Source: a virus
Lineage: Duplodnaviria; Heunggongvirae; Uroviricota; Caudoviricetes
Reading direction: 5' to 3' (one strand)
DNA length: 19,601 bases
IMG/VR virus record: IMGVR_UViG_2529293139_000005
This document shows, in pieces, positions 4,047 to 12,710 of the stretch. The notes beneath the pieces were generated by a model that saw only the letters and a list, made by a program, of their open reading frames with translations, had not been told where the DNA came from and made no database searches. A program made the position numbers and the translations under genes. How positions within the stretch are numbered: position 1 is the first letter of the stretch; each line of letters starts with the position of its first letter.

Positions 4047-4424
4047 TTAGTGATTCAGGCCGTTACCGCGTCCGTCGAGAAAAACTTCCACGAGCAAATC
4101 ACGGGTATAAGTGCGCTCGATGCCGCGATGCAGATAAAGCCGTCCGCGTAAATTAGCTGATGCAGTCCAGGTACCATCTTTGTGTTTGACCAGCATTCCT
4201 GGCATGACCGCACCTCGATTAACGGTCTGCGTTCCGTAATGTTGATGAACCATAAAAACTCCTGCCCGTAAGCTGGGCTGCTGAACATATAGAGACTTCT
4301 GCGCGTATTCAGGCGGTGGATGGCCGCCGGTTGTCATAACTAAGCCGCCTCGTTGAAGCGACTGAGGTATGAGGTGTTGAGTTGATTTCAGCTGGTCACA
4401 CCGACGTTCACGCGTCCGTTTCAC
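4047..4424 (-). CDS. Hypothetical early-left protein with Arg-rich N-terminus (possible N-like antiterminator, or a kil-position gene); start uncertain (TTG 4457, GTG 4424 or ATG 4337)
   Basis: ORF 4047..4457(-) begins at TTG. GTG at 4424 is preceded by GGGGAG at 8-nt spacing and would give MKRTRERRCDQLK, reminiscent of N-protein Arg-rich motifs; ATG 4337 has GAGG upstream. First gene downstream of the putative PL. Confidence 0.4.
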   Translation of the reverse strand: MKRTRERRCDQLKSTQHLIPQSLQRGGLVMTTGGHPPPEYAQKSLYVQQPSLRAGVFMVHQHYGTQTVNRGAVMPGMLVKHKDGTWTASANLRGRLYLHRGIERTYTRDLLVEVFLDGRGNGLNH

Positions 4425-4523
4425 CCCTCGCACTCCCCGGAGCCTGCCGAAATTCAAGCTGCGGATCTAAGCGGTCATCGCAACGGTGAATCAGGCGGTT
4501 GCCGTATCGTTGTGTTGTTGCGA

Positions 4524-4580
4524 CATGGTAATAATAGCTATTGCTATTGGTGGTATCAATACTTATTGCTATTGATTGAT
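4524..4580 (-). promoter_or_regulatory. Candidate PL promoter with operators (OL): minus-strand -35 TTGATA (plus 4554..4559), 17-bp spacer, -10 TATTAT (plus 4531..4536); TTGCTATT repeats
   Basis: Sigma70-like hexamers with 17-bp spacer read off the minus strand; 13-mer TTGCTATTGATTG at 4566..4578 is identical to 7216..7228 in the cI-cro intergenic region; palindrome AATAGCTATT at 4533..4542. Confidence 0.45.
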
Positions 4581-4699
4581 GTGTTTTGATATTAACTGTT
4601 TGATAGCAAAAAGAATTAATTTTGTGACTTGCATCGCATAGCGATAACTGAAGGGAGGTTGTGGTGGTTTTTCGAACGGTTTGTGTGATGAGGGGAGGG

Positions 4700-4730
4700 G
4701 ACAAAAGAAAACCCGGCACGGTGGCCGGGC
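4700..4730 (-). terminator. Rho-independent terminator ending the cI-kinase cassette transcript
   Basis: Minus strand reads CCCGGC-caccgt-GCCGGG followed by TTTTCTTTTGT; GC stem 4712..4717 / 4724..4729. Confidence 0.6.
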
Positions 4731-4894
4731 TAGATCTTAAAGTATTTATCTTTTAGAGATGTAGATGCAAAATTTTTTGCCTTTGAAAATTTTTTGTCAT
4801 CAGAAGAGCTTATGAACTCATCTTTTTTGTAGGGAACCGCTAATGCTGCATCACGTCTGCGAGGCAGCTTACTTACTTCCTCGCACTTTTTCAT
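4730..4894 (-). CDS. Small basic protein (54 aa, MKKCEEVSKLPRRRDAALAVPYKKDEFISSSDDKKFSKAKNFASTSLKDKYFKI); third gene of the kinase cassette; absent from the supplied ORF track
   Basis: Hand translation of the minus strand; ATG 4894..4892 lies 2 nt after the kinase TGA (4899..4897) with AAGGA 8 nt upstream; TAG stop overlaps the terminator stem. Confidence 0.4.
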   Translation of the reverse strand: MKKCEEVSKLPRRRDAALAVPYKKDEFISSSDDKKFSKAKNFASTSLKDKYFKI

Positions 4895-4896
4895 GA

Positions 4897-5943
4897 TCAG
4901 TTATCCTTTAATAACCTATACAGTTTTGTAGGGGTACATCCTGAGGATATTGTTAAGTTCGTAGCACGCCTTTTCCGCCCACCATCGTATAAACGAAAAC
5001 CAGTAGTAGACGAATTTTCTGCGTCAAAAACTATAGACAGTATAACGTCCCCAGACTTTTTTTGCCATTCATATGTGCCGTTAGTTGGTTTTGTCATCTG
5101 TAGACGCCAGTCAAGAACGCCATCACTTATAGCTGAGAGATCGTTTAGTACGTCTAGTACGGATTGATATCTTTCATTTGGATCTACATGAATGCATTTG
5201 TTTACTATTGTTATCAATTTTTTATGTATGTGGGAAGGATACTCTTTTAATGGATAGGAGCCATTAATTATCGACTCTCTGAGTTGTTCAATCGTTCTAA
5301 ATGCAGATCTTTCTCTTTCAAAATTATCATATCCAACACACATTCTATATATGGTTAATCCTGCCTGATATATGTCATATGTGAAATTATAATCATTTGT
5401 TGATAAAGAAAAATATTCCGGTGGCACATGAAAATGATATCCAAACTCAGGCGCAGCTCTCGATTCCTCATTGACTAACTGAGACAATCCAAAGTCAGAT
5501 AGCATGGCCTCATTTCTGTTTGATATCATGATGTTATTAGGTTTTATATCAAAATGCATAAGACCTTTTGAGTGTATATGATAAAGCCCACTTAAAAATT
5601 GAATAGAATACCGTATTATCTCCCTGCTCGTAAGATTAATCTTTTTTATTAATTGGTTTAGCGAACCATTATGATAAAATGGCATGGCTATATAGATATT
5701 GCTCTCACATTGAGCAGCATACTGAACTTGCACAATATTTGGATGTGCATGTTTATAGAGAAGCCTTGCTTCATTAAAGTAGTCGTCGTGGTTAGTGTTT
5801 TCTTTTTTTTCTATTTCTTTAATCACCAAGTCATGAGCTAGGTGTCTGTCATGAGCCAGATATACTTTTGAAAAACAACCCTGTTCTTCTAGATCACGAA
5901 TCCATTCGAATGCTACATCAGCTCTTTTGTATGGAGTCAGCAT
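4897..5943 (-). CDS. Hanks-type (eukaryotic-like) Ser/Thr protein kinase, 348 aa, with C-terminal extension of unknown function
   Basis: Kinase motifs in order: LVIKE (beta3 Lys), HFDIKPNN (catalytic loop, non-RD), SDFGLS (DFG), PPEY (APE-like); strong GGAGG RBS; AT-rich relative to neighbours. Confidence 0.85.
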   Translation of the reverse strand: MLTPYKRADVAFEWIRDLEEQGCFSKVYLAHDRHLAHDLVIKEIEKKENTNHDDYFNEARLLYKHAHPNIVQVQYAAQCESNIYIAMPFYHNGSLNQLIKKINLTSREIIRYSIQFLSGLYHIHSKGLMHFDIKPNNIMISNRNEAMLSDFGLSQLVNEESRAAPEFGYHFHVPPEYFSLSTNDYNFTYDIYQAGLTIYRMCVGYDNFERERSAFRTIEQLRESIINGSYPLKEYPSHIHKKLITIVNKCIHVDPNERYQSVLDVLNDLSAISDGVLDWRLQMTKPTNGTYEWQKKSGDVILSIVFDAENSSTTGFRLYDGGRKRRATNLTISSGCTPTKLYRLLKDN

Positions 5944-6398
5944 CCCCTTACCTCCGCAGATAGTGCAGCCAAAACAGCTTCATTTGTTTCAGTTGTAAAA
6001 CCAGAATTATCGATTCCATTTATATTACGGTGTGACTTCAATATTTCTTTATACTCGATCTCTGTTAGGTTCAATGATGACTTCATACCAGATTTTCTAA
6101 TGGTGTAATATCTTCTTACATCACTGCTTGAAAATGCTTCTTGAATAACAGCTTCTATATAAAGGCGGTCAATGCTAAGATTATCAGAGTTTGATTCAGT
6201 AACGCGTATAGCAGCTAATTCAACATTATATAAATTAAGAATGTCGAGGATGTTATTTCGCACATACTTTAATTTTTCTGGTGTGTCTAAGGTCGAAGGT
6301 ATTTTAATAACATCAACACATTTGAGTGCAGACTCATCAGTGCAATATACAACAAAAGATGTAACTTTGGGCGCCGCCCTAACACCTAGTATTCTCAT
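5937..6398 (-). CDS. Hypothetical protein (153 aa), first gene of the kinase cassette, translationally coupled to the kinase
   Basis: ORF 5937..6398(-); its TGA (5939..5937) lies 2 nt inside the kinase ATG (5943..5941); no recognisable domain; AT-rich. Confidence 0.65.
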   Translation of the reverse strand: MRILGVRAAPKVTSFVVYCTDESALKCVDVIKIPSTLDTPEKLKYVRNNILDILNLYNVELAAIRVTESNSDNLSIDRLYIEAVIQEAFSSSDVRRYYTIRKSGMKSSLNLTEIEYKEILKSHRNINGIDNSGFTTETNEAVLAALSAEVRGC

Positions 6399-6478
6399 TT
6401 TTTATATCCCATTTTAGAATCAGGCTGCGTTTCTGCAGCCTCTCTCATCACCCAAATGTCTAATCAGGCTATTATTGA

Positions 6479-7171
6479 TTATCCATGTTTCCTGTATGTT
6501 TGCGGCATGCTCCCAATAACTTTCCCGAAGATAAACACCCGGTTCATCTCGTCTTTCTCGATTGGGTCCCACGGTGAGTAGCTCTTGTTATCAGAGATAA
6601 CCAGCAGTTTATCCTTCATCATTTGCAGGCGCTTAACATGGGCTGTGTCGTCATACAGAAACGCATAGATACCATCACCGTCGAAAGATTTAACAGTGAT
6701 ATCAACGAACAGAAGATCACCTGGTTCGATCGTTCCTGACATGCTGTCACCGCGTACGTTAATGATGCGGATATTTTCTGCCTTCCTGCCATCGAACATG
6801 TGACGAGCATCGTCAAACGAGTACTCAACCGAGCGTAGAACTTCTACAAACTCACGGTTGATGACTCCCGGCCCGGCACTCACTTCTATATCAAGAACGT
6901 CAATCTTGAAGTATTTGGGATGGTTGGCAGCAGGCTTCCCTGATTGTTGACCGTCATTTCTCATCGGGCCTATGCCTGATGAGAGCCACTCTGTTCGAAC
7001 ACCCAATGCATTAGCTATTTCAACAATTTTTGTTGAGCCGCGTGCGTTGCCGCTTGTCAGTCTCCAGATTGTGGGTTGAGCTACGCCAGACGCCTTTGCA
7101 AGAGCGCCTTGAGACATTCCAGATTGTTCCATCGCTAGGTTTAAGCGATCAGCAAGAGTTTCTTTTTTCAT
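6479..7171 (-). CDS. cI: CI-type prophage repressor: N-terminal XRE-family HTH plus C-terminal LexA-like S24 autopeptidase domain (about 230 aa from Met at 7171)
   Basis: HTH MSQGALAKASGVAQPTIWRL; S24-like segment with RGDSMSG (Ser) and downstream VKRL (Lys); no SD before ATG 7171 (possibly leaderless like lambda cI); the ORF-track start at 7207 would fall inside the promoter. Confidence 0.85.
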   Translation of the reverse strand: MKKETLADRLNLAMEQSGMSQGALAKASGVAQPTIWRLTSGNARGSTKIVEIANALGVRTEWLSSGIGPMRNDGQQSGKPAANHPKYFKIDVLDIEVSAGPGVINREFVEVLRSVEYSFDDARHMFDGRKAENIRIINVRGDSMSGTIEPGDLLFVDITVKSFDGDGIYAFLYDDTAHVKRLQMMKDKLLVISDNKSYSPWDPIEKDEMNRVFIFGKVIGSMPQTYRKHG

Positions 7172-9793: not shown

Positions 9794-10092
9794 CGGGCAA
9801 AGAGGCAATTATTCATTACCTGGGGACTCATAAGAAATTCTGTGCGCAGGACGTTGCCGCGGTAACAGGCGCAACGGTAACCAGCATAAATCAGGCTGCG
9901 GCTAAAATGGCACGGGCAGGTCTTCTGGTTATCGAAGGTAAGGTCTGGCGAACGGTGTATTACCGGTTTGCTACCAGAGAAGAACGGGAAGGAAAGGTGA
10001 GCACGAATCTGATTTTTAAGGAGTGTCGCCAGAGTGCCGCGATGAAACGGGTATTGAGGGTATATAAAAGAACATCAATGGGTACACAATGA
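9790..10092 (+). CDS. ren: Ren (100 aa)
   Basis: MTGKEAIIHYLGTHKKFCAQDVAAVTGATVTSINQAAAKMARAGLLVIEGKVWRTVYYRFATREEREGK matches lambda Ren from memory; ATGA overlap with P. Confidence 0.9.
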   Translation: MTGKEAIIHYLGTHKKFCAQDVAAVTGATVTSINQAAAKMARAGLLVIEGKVWRTVYYRFATREEREGKVSTNLIFKECRQSAAMKRVLRVYKRTSMGTQ

Positions 10093-10159
10093 TGAAACAG
10101 GTGAGTTGAGTTCAAACTGTAGTACAATTCTCTCCAGTTTGAACAGGAAAGAATATTCT

Positions 10160-10492
10160 ATGAACCCTTATATTTATCTTGGTGGTGCAATACTTGCAGA
10201 GGTCATTGGTACAACCTTAATGAAGTTTTCAGAAGGTTTTACACGGTTATGGCCATCTGTTGGTACAATTATTTGTTATTGTGCATCATTCTGGTTATTA
10301 GCTCAGACGCTGGCTTATATTCCTACAGGGATTGCTTATGCTATCTGGTCAGGAGTCGGTATTGTCCTGATTAGCTTACTGTCATGGGGACTTTTCGGCC
10401 AACGGCTGGACCTGCCAGCCATTATAGGCATGATGTTGATTTGTGCCGGTGTGTTGGTTATTAATTTATTGTCACGAAGCACACCACATTAA
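10160..10492 (+). CDS. emrE: Small multidrug resistance efflux transporter EmrE (110 aa)
   Basis: MNPYIYLGGAILAEVIGTTLMKFSEGFTRLWPSVGTIICYCASFWLLAQTLAYIPTGIAYAIWSGVGIVLISLLSWG... matches E. coli EmrE from memory; AGGAAAG RBS. Confidence 0.95.
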   Translation: MNPYIYLGGAILAEVIGTTLMKFSEGFTRLWPSVGTIICYCASFWLLAQTLAYIPTGIAYAIWSGVGIVLISLLSWGLFGQRLDLPAIIGMMLICAGVLVINLLSRSTPH

Positions 10493-10523
10493 AAATAATT
10501 TGTTTCTAAACGACTAAAATATG

Positions 10524-10565
10524 GAGGCTCTTATATTTATATGAGCCTCGTTTTATGCTTTTTGT
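10524..10565 (+). terminator. Rho-independent terminator after emrE
   Basis: GAGGCTC (10524..10530), 12-nt loop, GAGCCTC (10543..10549), then GTTTTATGCTTTTT. Confidence 0.6.
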
Positions 10566-10748
10566 TAATGTCTTTATTTTTTTATGTATTCTTTTGTGCT
10601 TTCAAGATTATGGCGTAAGAAAATTGCAATACGATTATTGTTGTATATTCAAGATAATGTGACCTTAATTGTCTTTTTAAATAAAAATTAAACAAAAATT
10701 ATATCCCACCACTAAGGTTTATAAAAGCATACGTTAGCAGGTGTCACC

Positions 10749-12275
10749 ATGAAAAAAGCCATAGCATATATGCGATTTTCATCACCAGGTCAGATGTCTG
10801 GCGACTCATTAAACCGACAGAGAAGACTTATTGCTGAATGGTTAAAGGTAAATAGTGATTATTATCTTGATACCATAACATATGAAGATTTAGGATTAAG
10901 TGCATTCAAAGGAAAGCATGCACAATCAGGAGCTTTTTCGGAATTTTTAGATGCTATAGAGCATGGTTATATATTGCCAGGAACTACATTGTTAGTTGAA
11001 AGTCTGGACAGACTTTCAAGAGAAAAAGTCGGTGAAGCGATTGAACGTCTGAAATTGATTTTGAATCACGGTATTGATGTTATAACTCTTTGCGACAATA
11101 CAGTCTATAATATTGACTCTTTGAATGAGCCATATTCATTAATAAAAGCCATACTTATAGCACAAAGGGCAAATGAAGAAAGCGAGATAAAGTCAAGTCG
11201 GGTTAAATTATCATGGAAGAAAAAACGGCAGGATGCACTGGAATCAGGTACGATTATGACGGCGTCTTGTCCGAGATGGCTCTCCTTAGATGACAAAAGA
11301 ACGGCTTTTGTTCCAGACCCCGACAGGGTGAAAACTATTGAGCTAATTTTTAAACTCAGGATGGAAAGGCGCTCATTGAATGCAATAGCCAAGTATTTAA
11401 ATGATCATGCTGTAAAGAATTTCTCAGGAAAAGAAAGTGCATGGGGACCTTCTGTAATTGAAAAATTATTAGCGAATAAAGCTCTGATAGGTATATGCGT
11501 ACCTTCATATCGTGCAAGAGGTAAAGGAATAAGTGAAATCGCTGGCTATTATCCCAGAGTCATATCAGATGATTTGTTTTACGCTGTACAGGAAATTCGG
11601 TTGGCACCTTTTGGTATTAGCAATAGTAGCAAAAATCCTATGTTGATAAATCTACTTCGAACAGTTATGAAGTGCGAGGCTTGTGGTAATACCATGATTG
11701 TTCATGCGGTATCTGGAAGTTTGCATGGCTATTATGTTTGTCCGATGAGAAGACTGCATCGATGTGACAGGCCATCAATAAAGAGAGATTTGGTTGATTA
11801 TAATATCATTAATGAGTTGCTTTTTAATTGTAGTAAAATCCAACCAGTTGAAAACAAGAAAGATGCTAATGAAACTTTAGAGTTGAAAATTATTGAGCTC
11901 CAGATGAAAATTAATAATTTAATTGCTGCATTATCTGTTGCGCCTGAAGTTACCGCTATAGCAGAAAAAATCAGAGTATTAGATAAGGAATTACGAAGGG
12001 CTTCTGTATCATTAAAAACTTTGAAGAGTAAAGCGGTGAGTTCACTTGGTGATTTTCATGCTATTGACTTAACCAGTAAAAATGGGCGAGAGCTATGTCG
12101 TACACTTGCCTATAAAACATTCGAAAAAATCATAATCAATACAGATAATAAAACCTGTGATATCTATTTTATGAATGGCATTGTTTTTAAACACTATCCT
12201 TTAATGAAAACAATATCCGCCCAGCAGGCGATAAGTACTCTCAAATATATGGTTGATGGTGAGGTTTATTTTTGA
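10749..12275 (+). CDS. ybcK: Large serine recombinase (508 aa), YbcK-like
   Basis: N-terminal resolvase-type catalytic region AIAYMRFSSPGQ (Ser), large central domain, Cys cluster CEACGN...CPMRRLHRC (zinc ribbon), coiled-coil C-terminus; AT-rich gene downstream of emrE as in DLP12. Confidence 0.85.
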   Translation: MKKAIAYMRFSSPGQMSGDSLNRQRRLIAEWLKVNSDYYLDTITYEDLGLSAFKGKHAQSGAFSEFLDAIEHGYILPGTTLLVESLDRLSREKVGEAIERLKLILNHGIDVITLCDNTVYNIDSLNEPYSLIKAILIAQRANEESEIKSSRVKLSWKKKRQDALESGTIMTASCPRWLSLDDKRTAFVPDPDRVKTIELIFKLRMERRSLNAIAKYLNDHAVKNFSGKESAWGPSVIEKLLANKALIGICVPSYRARGKGISEIAGYYPRVISDDLFYAVQEIRLAPFGISNSSKNPMLINLLRTVMKCEACGNTMIVHAVSGSLHGYYVCPMRRLHRCDRPSIKRDLVDYNIINELLFNCSKIQPVENKKDANETLELKIIELQMKINNLIAALSVAPEVTAIAEKIRVLDKELRRASVSLKTLKSKAVSSLGDFHAIDLTSKNGRELCRTLAYKTFEKIIINTDNKTCDIYFMNGIVFKHYPLMKTISAQQAISTLKYMVDGEVYF

Positions 12276-12386
12276 GTAATAATCACTTTTTCAACCGTGC
12301 TATAGTAAGAAAGTTAGGTAAGTACAATAAAATTATCTATCCTGAACGAAGCGTCCTGAGCTATGGTTTTACTATAGAGACTGCCA

Positions 12387-12710
12387 ATGGATGCTGGCGT
12401 TCTCGTTCTAGCAGTTCAACAATACCCAATCACAAAACAATTCACTGATAACGAACTTTGCACACTCGCCTGGTTATGGCGAGCAGGGAATGTGATGTTA
12501 ATTACCTACCAGAACGTTACTCCTCTTCTTCAGGTTGCGGAGCATCGTGAAGCTGGTCGCTTCACTTCTATCGAGCAAGAATACCCCCAGATACTCAATA
12601 AGGCACAGGCAATCCTTGCCAGAGAAACGGCACATGTAAAATTCCGGCCGTGGCAGGATGATAAGTGGAGTCGAGTTTTGCCGCATTTACGTTCGGATCG
12701 ATTACAGTAG
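12387..12710 (+). CDS. Hypothetical protein (107 aa)
   Basis: ORF 12387..12710(+); weak RBS; no family recognised. Confidence 0.3.
   Translation: MDAGVLVLAVQQYPITKQFTDNELCTLAWLWRAGNVMLITYQNVTPLLQVAEHREAGRFTSIEQEYPQILNKAQAILARETAHVKFRPWQDDKWSRVLPHLRSDRLQ

What the first reader, a model, noticed from the sequence alone, without database searches (positions are those of the whole stretch)
4897..5943. Kinase has the core catalytic motifs but a degenerate Gly-rich loop, a non-RD catalytic loop and a roughly 80-residue C-terminal tail
Read from the translation: the beta3 Lys (LVIKE), catalytic loop HFDIKPNN (Phe in place of the Arg of HRD, so a non-RD kinase), SDFGLS and PPEY are present, so catalysis is plausible. 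The GxGxxG loop is replaced by EEQGCFSKV, and about 80 residues follow the kinase core (VLDWRLQMTKPTNGTYEWQKK...LYRLLKDN) with no recognisable fold. Non-RD kinases are typically not regulated by activation-loop phosphorylation, so regulation may be by the partner proteins or a phage trigger.
Basis: seen in the sequence. Interest (0 to 1): 0.55.

Follow-up and report, generated by a model that had tools for sequence, protein, structure and literature searches.

The report
Known prophage defence kinase Stk
This gene is a near-identical copy of Stk, the already characterised kinase that Shiga-toxin phage 933W uses to abort infection by a rival phage, so its odd motifs are normal features of its family; what may be new is that it always sits between the same two small partner genes, in bacteria of several phyla.

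Summary
The ORF is real. It lies on the minus strand (4897-5943), encodes 348 aa, and matches Pfam Pkinase at E 1e-46. It is 96.8% identical over its full length to Stk of phage 933W, a published eukaryotic-like tyrosine kinase that is co-transcribed with cI and aborts HK97 superinfection.

All catalytic residues are present and are invariant in 193 family members. HFD (non-RD) is a family-wide trait. The Gly-rich loop keeps the key second Gly and has Ser at the third position, as CaMKI does; only the first Gly is lost.

The roughly 75-residue tail is a conserved, confidently predicted small beta/alpha domain with invariant W279 and W293. It has no counterpart in Pfam, PDB or BFVD.

Beyond the finding:
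- The kinase belongs to a 1758-bp low-GC cassette shared with 933W.
- In 88 of 88 related loci from four phyla, and in a Bacillus SPbeta-like phage, it is directly preceded by a translationally coupled ~152-aa protein. That protein is weakly RuvC-like, with near-invariant Arg at two positions weakly aligned to RuvC's first two catalytic acids.
- It is usually followed by a coupled ~55-aa ORF.

Verdict: a known protein and an ordinary allele. The conserved three-gene module is a testable lead.

The parts
4897..5943 (-). stk: 348-aa Hanks-type protein kinase, an allele of 933W Stk (11 aa differences)
   Evidence: ORF. Pfam Pkinase 1.2e-46. 96.8% identity over 100% of 933W stk. phrog_2361 at 9e-139.
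5134..5910 (-). Kinase catalytic domain (about residues 12-270). Carries G22/S25 (degenerate Gly loop), K42, E58, H130-F131-D132, N137, D150-F-G, Y169 and P175-E176.
   Evidence: HMMER alignment to CaMKI. Invariance across 193 family members. AF2 secondary structure. Foldseek hits to PDK1, CaMKII and AMPK kinase domains at E about 1e-16.
4900..5118 (-). C-terminal domain (residues about 276-348): LDW motif, four or five beta-strands and a terminal helix; invariant W279 and W293
5937..6398 (-). 153-aa partner gene (933W L0083/'res'). Its stop overlaps the stk start by 7 nt (GGATGCTGA). It is distantly RuvC-like, with Arg at positions weakly aligned to RuvC's first two catalytic acids.
   Evidence: phrog_3875 at 1.9e-90. 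Pfam RuvC 0.062 here, weak hits in 16/31 homologues, best 1.8e-4. Present directly upstream in 88/88 loci. R7, R65, E68, R78, E82, E87 and E140 are near-invariant. Junction sequence.
4730..4894 (-). 54-aa ORF starting 2 nt after the stk stop (phrog_4063); positional equivalent of a small ORF found after most family kinases
   Evidence: Proteus homologues at E 5e-7. A small same-strand ORF starts within 12 nt of the kinase stop in 62/88 loci, against 7/88 and 11/88 in controls. Homology beyond Morganellaceae is not significant.
4710..4731 (-). Intrinsic terminator at the end of the operon (annotated tM / tRM in 933W and phi24B)
   Evidence: 8-bp GC-rich stem followed by a T-run. The corresponding feature is annotated in 933W and phi24B.
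4704..6461 (.). 1758-bp low-GC (about 0.35) cassette shared with 933W at 96.9% identity: partner gene + stk + 54-aa ORF + terminator
   Evidence: blastn against the 933W locus. GC profile. Present in 225 of 5426 complete E. coli genomes.
6479..7171 (-). cI-type repressor (HTH + S24 peptidase) heading the same leftward operon. It has a different immunity type from 933W, and no DUF3024 gene lies between it and the cassette.
   Evidence: Pfam Peptidase_S24 1.5e-18 and HTH_3. Annotation in strain KSC207. 933W layout. The 933W homology starts only at 6461.

Best explanation
The ORF encodes Stk, the prophage-borne Hanks-type kinase first described in Shiga-toxin phage 933W. Here it sits in the immunity region of a DLP12-like lambdoid prophage at the argU site.

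Proposed working:
1. In the lysogen it is transcribed with the repressor from the maintenance promoter and ends at the tM terminator. This is shown for 933W and phi24B in the literature and inferred here from the identical layout.
2. The kinase is catalytically competent but stays essentially silent until a superinfecting phage supplies a trigger. It then phosphorylates cellular proteins, on tyrosine according to the published work, and the infected cell aborts the infection.
3. The non-RD HFD loop, the E-x-G-x-F-S Gly loop, the invariant Tyr169 at the position of the 'GT' threonine in the P+1 loop, and the private C-terminal domain are all family-wide traits, not decay.
4. Inferred, not shown: because a non-RD kinase does not need activation-loop phosphorylation, control is exerted through protein-protein contacts. 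These would involve the C-terminal domain and the two translationally coupled neighbours, the ~152-aa RuvC-like protein upstream and the ~55-aa protein downstream. Together they would form a three-gene sensor/regulator-effector module.
For: Identity:
- 96.8% identical over its full length to 933W Stk, with no change in any motif.
- Same cassette and same terminator as 933W.

Known function of Stk:
- PMC3681748: activated on HK97 infection, involved in exclusion, little or no activity in uninfected cells.
- PMC3564112: co-transcribed with cI; aborts HK97 infection.
- PMC3430580: pRM-controlled, expressed in stable lysogeny.

Competence: K42, E58, D132, K134, N137, D150 and E176 are invariant in 193/193 members; F131 is kept in 187/193. 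Pkinase E 1e-46.

Folded, docked tail: pLDDT about 95 and pTM 0.90. W279 and W293 are kept in 190/193.

Module:
- The partner lies directly upstream on the same strand in 88/88 loci from Alpha-, Beta- and Gammaproteobacteria, Bacteroidota, Ignavibacteria and a cyanobacterium, mostly with a 1-8 nt stop/start overlap. It is also present in Bacillus phage SPbetaL7.
- A small ORF is coupled to the kinase stop in 62-82 of 88 loci, against 7-11 in controls.
- No other neighbouring gene is conserved; the most widespread occurs in 9 of 88 loci.
- Contexts outside lambdoid prophages include Abi_2 plus an integrase, type I R-M, and a tail-gene moron.

Selection: 12 synonymous against 11 non-synonymous codon differences from 933W, which indicates purifying selection.
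Against: - No experiment addresses this allele.
- In the closest genome (KSC207) the gene is frameshifted, and in others it is interrupted by an IS3 element, so it is dispensable and sometimes decaying.
- I could not read the primary Stk papers. I therefore cannot say whether stk alone sufficed for exclusion in those experiments. If it did, the partners are modulators at most.
- The partner's RuvC relationship is weak: below Pfam's cut-off, hhalign probability 1.4%, and no PDB hit with a family profile.
- Homology of the 54-aa ORF to the small ORFs of other phyla is not statistically established.
- The DIKPNN catalytic loop is of the Ser/Thr type, which sits awkwardly with the published tyrosine specificity.
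Confidence: 0.85

Rival explanations
1. Stk works alone. The phage trigger binds the kinase (perhaps its C-terminal domain) directly, and the flanking 153-aa and 54-aa genes have separate jobs, for example a recombination or resolvase function as their database names suggest.
For: Published accounts speak only of Stk and an HK97 factor. PHROGs and PGAP label the upstream gene 'RuvC-like Holliday junction resolvase' or 'RuvC family protein'. Other kinase defences such as Stk2 are described as single kinases triggered by a phage protein.
Against: The partner co-occurs with the kinase in 88/88 loci, with overlapping stop/start codons, across four phyla and in unrelated genomic contexts. No other neighbour is conserved. 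The positions weakly aligned to RuvC's first two catalytic acids are near-invariant Arg (81/84 and 80/84), which argues against a working resolvase. The partner is not found apart from kinase-bearing contigs among the hits, whose contig lengths pair one-to-one with those of the kinase hits.
Confidence: 0.2
2. The module is a kinase toxin-antitoxin-like addiction or lysogeny-control device. One small partner neutralises the kinase, and the main role is prophage maintenance or induction control rather than defence, as proposed for the KKP kinase-kinase-phosphatase module of Pf prophages.
For: It lies in the repressor operon and is expressed only in the lysogen. It consists of small, translationally coupled genes around a potentially toxic enzyme. 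There is precedent for a prophage kinase module controlling both lysogeny and defence (PMC11341870).
Against: No phosphatase is present. The module also occurs outside prophage immunity regions, next to R-M and Abi genes. Published work ties Stk to exclusion of HK97. Natural frameshift and IS-disrupted alleles persist without loss of the prophage.
Confidence: 0.15
3. The gene is a decaying moron or pseudokinase in a defective prophage and has no present function.
For: The host prophage is DLP12-like and lacks an N gene between the terminator and kil. The allele in the closest genome is frameshifted. The Gly-rich loop has lost its first glycine.
Against: The reading frame is intact here. All catalytic residues are retained. 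Only 11 amino-acid changes separate it from the functional 933W protein, against 12 synonymous ones. The Gly-loop and HFD features are conserved across the whole family rather than being lineage-specific damage.
Confidence: 0.05

Closest known systems
Stk of Shiga-toxin phage 933W (and of phi24B, Stx2 phage 86, Min27); Tyler & Friedman 2004 J Bacteriol 186:3472; Friedman et al. 2011 Mol Microbiol 82:567
   Same: 96.8% identical over all 348 residues. Same flanking 153-aa and 54-aa genes and the same terminator (1758-bp cassette at 96.9% DNA identity). Same position downstream of cI in the leftward immunity operon.
   Different: 11 amino-acid substitutions, three of them in the C-terminal domain and none in a motif. 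A different prophage backbone (DLP12-like at argU, with no Stx genes in the window). A different cI. No DUF3024 gene between cI and the cassette. No N/nutL region downstream.
Stk2 of Staphylococcus epidermidis (Depardieu et al. 2016)
   Same: A eukaryotic-like kinase that is switched on by a phage protein and kills or arrests the infected cell by phosphorylating many host proteins. It works in the same way.
   Different: There is only generic kinase-domain similarity. No dedicated Stk2 model ranked above mad6 or PD-T4-6 in PADLOC. Stk2 is a Ser/Thr kinase that signals through Stk1. It is not described with the RuvC-like or small partner genes, and it lacks the LDW tail.
PD-T4-6 (Vassallo et al. 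2022) and Mad6 of the MADS system
   Same: These are the best PADLOC matches (mad6 8e-49, PD-T4-6 1.5e-36), covering the kinase domain. Both are defence-associated Hanks-type kinases.
   Different: The scores are no better than for generic Pkinase (159.7 bits). NCBIfam MAD6 scores 113.7 bits against a cut-off of 460. The matches stop at about residues 273-293, so the tail is not shared. The partner proteins have no PADLOC match.
RexAB of phage lambda
   Same: Same genomic logic: exclusion genes placed downstream of cI and expressed from pRM in the lysogen, which abort infection by another phage.
   Different: The proteins and the mechanism are unrelated: RexAB is an ion-channel-type system, not a kinase.
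Eukaryotic non-RD kinases and Wee1 (from my own knowledge, not tested here)
   Same: An HxD catalytic loop without Arg, as in the non-RD kinases linked to innate immune receptors. Wee1 (HMDIKPSN) is a tyrosine kinase with a Ser/Thr-type loop very like HFDIKPNN.
   Different: No specific relationship was detected. The best PDB sequence hits are CaMKI, PKR and Nek7, at only about 1e-22.

Membership tests
Hanks-type / eukaryotic-like protein kinase (Pfam PF00069) | Profile match above the curated cut-off | tested here: met
   159.7 bits against a cut-off of 31.7, E 1.2e-46, residues 21-260.
Hanks-type / eukaryotic-like protein kinase (Pfam PF00069) | Catalytic residues: beta3 Lys, alphaC Glu, HxD Asp, catalytic-loop Asn, DFG Asp, APE Glu | tested here: met
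   K42, E58, D132, N137, D150 and E176, placed by alignment to CaMKI and invariant in 193/193 relatives. It is not a pseudokinase.
Hanks-type / eukaryotic-like protein kinase (Pfam PF00069) | Canonical GxGxxG loop | tested here: not met
   The loop reads E20-x-G22-x-F-S25. Only the second Gly is retained. Ser at the third position also occurs in CaMKI. This is a variation within the family, not an exclusion from it.
RD kinases | Arg immediately before the catalytic Asp | tested here: not met
   H130-F131-D132; Phe in 187/193 relatives and never Arg. It is a non-RD kinase.
933W Stk family (phrog_2361) | Full-length similarity, including the C-terminal domain | tested here: met
   96.8% identity over 348/348 residues. 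phrog_2361 at 9e-139, residues 10-347.
933W Stk family (phrog_2361) | Synteny: cI operon, upstream 153-aa gene, downstream 54-aa gene, tM terminator | tested here: met
   The DUF3024 gene of 933W is absent here.
933W Stk family (phrog_2361) | Tyrosine phosphorylation and HK97 exclusion triggered by an HK97 gene | not testable with these tools
   Known only from the literature on the 933W protein. The primary papers are not in the library.
MADS Mad6 kinase (NCBIfam NF047741) | Score at or above the curated cut-off | tested here: not met
   113.7 bits against a cut-off of 460, although it is the top PADLOC hit.
PknB/Stk1 PASTA kinases (NCBIfam NF033483) | Score at or above the cut-off, and PASTA repeats | tested here: not met
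   117.8 bits against a cut-off of 450. The match covers the kinase domain only, and there is no PASTA hit.
PD-T4-6 | Specific match to the PD-T4-6 models beyond generic kinase similarity | tested here: inconclusive
   Best E 1.5e-36 (124.6 bits), over residues 20-273 only. This is weaker than generic Pkinase. PADLOC models carry no curated cut-off.
RuvC resolvase (for the 153-aa partner) | Profile match above the cut-off, and the acidic catalytic tetrad | tested here: not met
   13.6 bits against a cut-off of 22.2. Weak hits in 16/31 homologues, best 1.8e-4. No PDB hit with a family profile. The positions weakly aligned to RuvC Asp7 and Glu66 are near-invariant Arg. At most it has a RuvC-like fold and is unlikely to be an active resolvase.

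The most novel reading that the evidence does not exclude
Stk is not a stand-alone kinase. It would be the effector of a widespread three-gene anti-phage module that I could not find described, made of:
- a ~152-aa RuvC-like protein with Arg at two positions weakly aligned to RuvC's first two catalytic acids;
- a non-RD kinase with a private C-terminal docking domain;
- a fast-evolving ~55-aa protein.

The partners would hold the kinase off and/or sense the invader, possibly a phage recombination protein or the DNA structures it makes. The module spans Proteobacteria, Bacteroidota, Cyanobacteria and Bacillus phages, and it has no entry for its partner proteins in PADLOC 2.0.
Probability: 0.4. 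Interest if true: 0.6.

Novelty: already known. Interest (0 to 1): 0.33.

Why it matters
As stated, the finding re-describes a protein characterised in 2004 and 2011, so it adds an allele and a new prophage context rather than a discovery.

Two things are worth keeping:
- The 'odd' features are strictly conserved over 193 relatives. These are the non-RD loop, the reduced Gly loop, a Tyr in place of the P+1 Thr, and the C-terminal domain. They therefore define a distinct kinase family rather than decay, and they give concrete residues to mutate when asking how a Ser/Thr-looking kinase phosphorylates tyrosine and how it is kept silent.
- The invariable association with a RuvC-like partner and a small downstream ORF suggests that the classic Stk exclusion system has been studied as one gene when it may be three. 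This can be tested directly with existing 933W and HK97 genetics.

Tried and rejected
- **Tail searched alone.** A search of the 1.84-billion-protein library with the tail found only close Stk relatives, plus a WD40 protein and an fn3 repeat protein. Pfam showed those two hits to be repeat artefacts.
- **Other tail searches.** A tail profile against PDB sequences gave nothing below E 0.34. BFVD gave E >= 0.02 and TM < 0.55. Pfam scans of 48 tails gave only singleton noise. The afdb50 library was unavailable.
- **Partner.** A family profile against the PDB returned only a spurious ALIX hit. I use that alignment only as a lead.
- **54-aa ORF.** phmmer, a cross-phylum HMM and an iterated search failed to link it significantly to the small ORFs outside Morganellaceae.
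- **A further conserved gene.** None was found in the flanks of the 88 loci.
- **Rfam.** No RNA family anywhere in the window.
- **Primary literature.** The Tyler & Friedman 2004, Tyler et al. 2004 and Friedman et al. 2011 papers are not held. Searches for a description of a kinase-plus-RuvC-like defence system found none.
- **Pseudokinase and MAD6/PknB membership.** Both were rejected on residues and on curated cut-offs.

Full report
**What is in the sequence**

The window is a lambdoid prophage of E. coli. It aligns over 98% of its length at 98.4% identity to the chromosome of strain KSC207. There it lies beside tRNA-Arg and intD and carries the DLP12-type genes emrE, ybcK, rusA, quuD, an ompC-like porin and essD/rrrD.

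The finding's coordinates, 4897-5943, hold a 348-codon ORF on the minus strand. The plus-strand translation is full of stops. The protein matches Pfam Pkinase at E 1.2e-46, with 159.7 bits against a cut-off of 31.7, over residues 21-260.

**Motif check**

I checked the motifs two ways: against HMMER's alignment to CaMKI (PDB 1a06), and against family alignments of 31, 118 and finally 193 distinct sequences.
- K42 (LVIKE), E58, H130, D132, K134, P135, N137, D150, F151, P175, E176 and R258 are present and invariant in 193 of 193 sequences.
- F131, the residue that makes this a non-RD kinase, is Phe in 187 of 193 and is never Arg.
- The Gly-rich loop aligns E20-Q-G22-C-F24-S25-K-V27 to CaMKI's G-T-G-A-F-S-E-V. 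Only the first Gly is lost. G22 and S25 are invariant. Most relatives carry an extra Gly one position earlier (G19 in 156 of 193), and the E. coli lineage has replaced it with Glu or Asp.

**The tail**

Residues about 276-348 are conserved in length and pattern across the family. L277 and D278 are conserved, and W279 and W293 are kept in 190 of 193 sequences.

AlphaFold2 with a 118-sequence alignment gives mean pLDDT 89 and pTM 0.90. The last seven 10-residue blocks, apart from a dip at 281-290, score about 94-98. The predicted topology is a short strand, three long strands, a short strand and a terminal helix. Predicted alone, with 48 tail sequences, the domain folds the same way at pLDDT 85.

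It has no detectable relatives:
- a profile search of PDB sequences gave nothing below E 0.34;
- BFVD gave nothing below E 0.02;
- Pfam scans of 48 tails gave no recurrent family.

It is therefore a family-private folded domain, not a disordered tail. The high pTM suggests that it packs against the kinase. I could not inspect the model's coordinates.

**Identity**

The protein is 96.8% identical over all 348 residues to Stk of phage 933W and of many other Stx phages. The 11 differences are A11E, R16S, I99M, I102N, Y205H, R216S, S229C, S237P, Y291C, V300A and G321D. None touches a motif. There are also 12 synonymous codon differences.

The similarity extends over a 1758-bp cassette, window 4704-6461, at 96.9% identity. 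The cassette has about 35% GC against about 50% in its surroundings. It comprises the 153-aa gene, stk, the 54-aa gene and the terminator annotated tM. It occurs in 225 of 5426 complete E. coli genomes.

Here the cassette follows a cI of a different immunity type, and the DUF3024 gene that 933W has between cI and the cassette is missing.

**What is known about Stk**

I could not obtain the primary papers, so these points come from papers that cite them.
[quoted passage not shown] - stk expression is under pRM and occurs in stable lysogeny (PMC3430580).

**Beyond the finding: the neighbours**

The 153-aa gene overlaps the stk start by 7 nt (GGATGCTGA). The 54-aa ORF starts 2 nt after the stk stop and runs into the terminator.

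I fetched 8 loci by exact-protein look-up, from Proteus, Pseudomonas, Acinetobacter and Vibrio. A scan of one genome per species gave 80 more, from Alpha-, Beta- and Gammaproteobacteria, Bacteroidota, Ignavibacteria and a cyanobacterium.
- In all 88 loci the kinase carries the tail domain.
- In all 88 it is directly preceded, on the same strand, by a homologue of the 153-aa protein (E 1e-13 to 1e-74; 1e-35 or better except at two loci truncated by contig ends). Stop/start overlaps of 1-8 nt are typical.
- The same pair occurs in Bacillus phage SPbetaL7.
- No other flanking gene is conserved. The most widespread occurs in 9 of 88 loci.
- The contexts vary: lambdoid immunity regions, a slot among tail genes, next to Abi_2 and an integrase, and next to a type I R-M system.

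**The 153-aa partner**

PHROGs labels it RuvC-like, but the support is weak.
- Pfam RuvC scores 13.6 bits against a cut-off of 22.2.
- 16 of 31 homologues give weak RuvC hits, the best at 1.8e-4.
- A family profile finds no PDB entry.

Both are near-invariant basic residues: 81 Arg plus 1 Lys, and 80 Arg plus 3 Lys, among 84 sequences. D52, R47, E68, R78, E82, E87 and E140 are also near-invariant. An RNase H-like fold that has given up metal-dependent cleavage is plausible but unproven.

**The small downstream ORF**

- A same-strand ORF of 35-110 aa starts within 12 nt of the kinase stop in 62 of 88 loci. The commonest gap is -4, an ATGA overlap.
- Two control positions give 7 and 11 of 88. 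With a looser window the count is 82 of 88.
- These ORFs share an Arg-centred N-terminal motif and a C-terminal aromatic motif.
- The window's 54-aa protein is significantly similar only to the Proteus ones (E 5e-7).
- Tatumella and Xenorhabdus positional ORFs rank just below at E about 1. A cross-phylum HMM does not reach significance.

Position and size are therefore conserved. Homology across phyla is only suggested.

**Mechanism**

Shown, by the literature on a 97%-identical protein: a lysogen-expressed kinase that stays silent until HK97 infects and then aborts the infection.

Shown here: catalytic competence by sequence, family-wide conservation of the non-RD loop, a folded C-terminal domain, and an obligatory gene trio or at least pair.

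Inferred: control is exerted through protein contacts rather than activation-loop phosphorylation, which is the general behaviour of non-RD kinases by established knowledge. The tail and the two coupled partners would be the regulators or sensors.

A lead I could not verify: I recall the HK97 trigger being named gp41/orf41. By gene order in NC_002167 (Gp40, erf..., kil = Gp43), that number would fall on the Erf-like single-strand annealing protein. If so, a RuvC-like partner sensing recombination proteins or recombination intermediates would make sense. This rests on memory plus gene counting, not on a source.

**Comparison and verdict**

The kinase is a member of the 933W Stk family, by sequence, synteny and terminator.
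- It is not a MAD6 (113.7 bits against a cut-off of 460) and not a PknB-type kinase (117.8 against 450).
- Its PADLOC hits to mad6 and PD-T4-6 reflect the generic kinase domain.
- The partner proteins have no PADLOC hit.
- It works like Stk2 of staphylococci, and it occupies the same genomic niche as lambda RexAB.

The finding as written is a known protein, so its interest is low to moderate. The three-gene conservation is the part worth following. I found no description of it in the searchable literature, although that library lacks most subscription journals.

Noticed in passing
window 4254-4703: There is no N gene or nutL between the tM terminator and the kil-like gene. 933W has nutL, N and two more genes at this position, and only window 3985-4053 matches that 933W region. 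The closest genome annotates nothing here, and Rfam finds nothing.
   Followed up: partly
window 6423-6440 (minus strand): A perfect 6-bp GC-rich hairpin (GGCTGC-AGAAAC-GCAGCC) lies between the cI stop and the start of the 153-aa gene, inside the cassette shared with 933W. It could be an attenuator or an RNA processing site within the pRM transcript.
   Followed up: no
L001 7894-8939; hits H51 and H72: In the closest genome (KSC207) stk is annotated as a frameshifted pseudogene. In strains SFE8 and FWSEC0003 the cassette is split by an IS3-family element. The module is evidently lost repeatedly.
   Followed up: partly
window 10000-12500: A second low-GC island (about 0.35-0.37) in the prophage carries emrE and the ybcK recombinase-family gene. 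Like the stk cassette, it looks like an inserted moron.
   Followed up: no
L002 2637-2978; L004 4100-4441: A 113-aa DUF3024 gene sits between cI and the 153-aa gene in 933W, phi24B and Proteus prophages, but it is absent from this window. It is an optional fourth gene of the lambdoid versions of the cassette.
   Followed up: partly
L092 2004-3762 (Bacillus phage SPbetaL7): An SPbeta-like Bacillus phage carries the same trio: a 167-aa partner (E 3.5e-31 to the partner HMM), a 350-aa kinase with an 'IDWEY' tail, and a 60-aa downstream ORF that visibly resembles the Bacteroidota small ORFs (PL..ERL ... NG[FY]). The module therefore crosses the Gram divide.
   Followed up: partly
L093 2176-2781 (phage HK97): By gene numbering in the HK97 record (Gp40, erf..., kil = Gp43), the gene that would be 'gp41' is the Erf-like single-strand annealing protein. 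If my recollection that gp41 is the Stk trigger is right, Stk would join the defences triggered by phage recombinases. This is unverified.
   Followed up: partly
Stk residue Y169 (window 5437-5439, minus strand): An invariant Tyr (193/193) replaces the Thr of the 'GT' motif in the P+1 loop. It is a candidate determinant of the reported tyrosine specificity, or an autophosphorylation site.
   Followed up: partly
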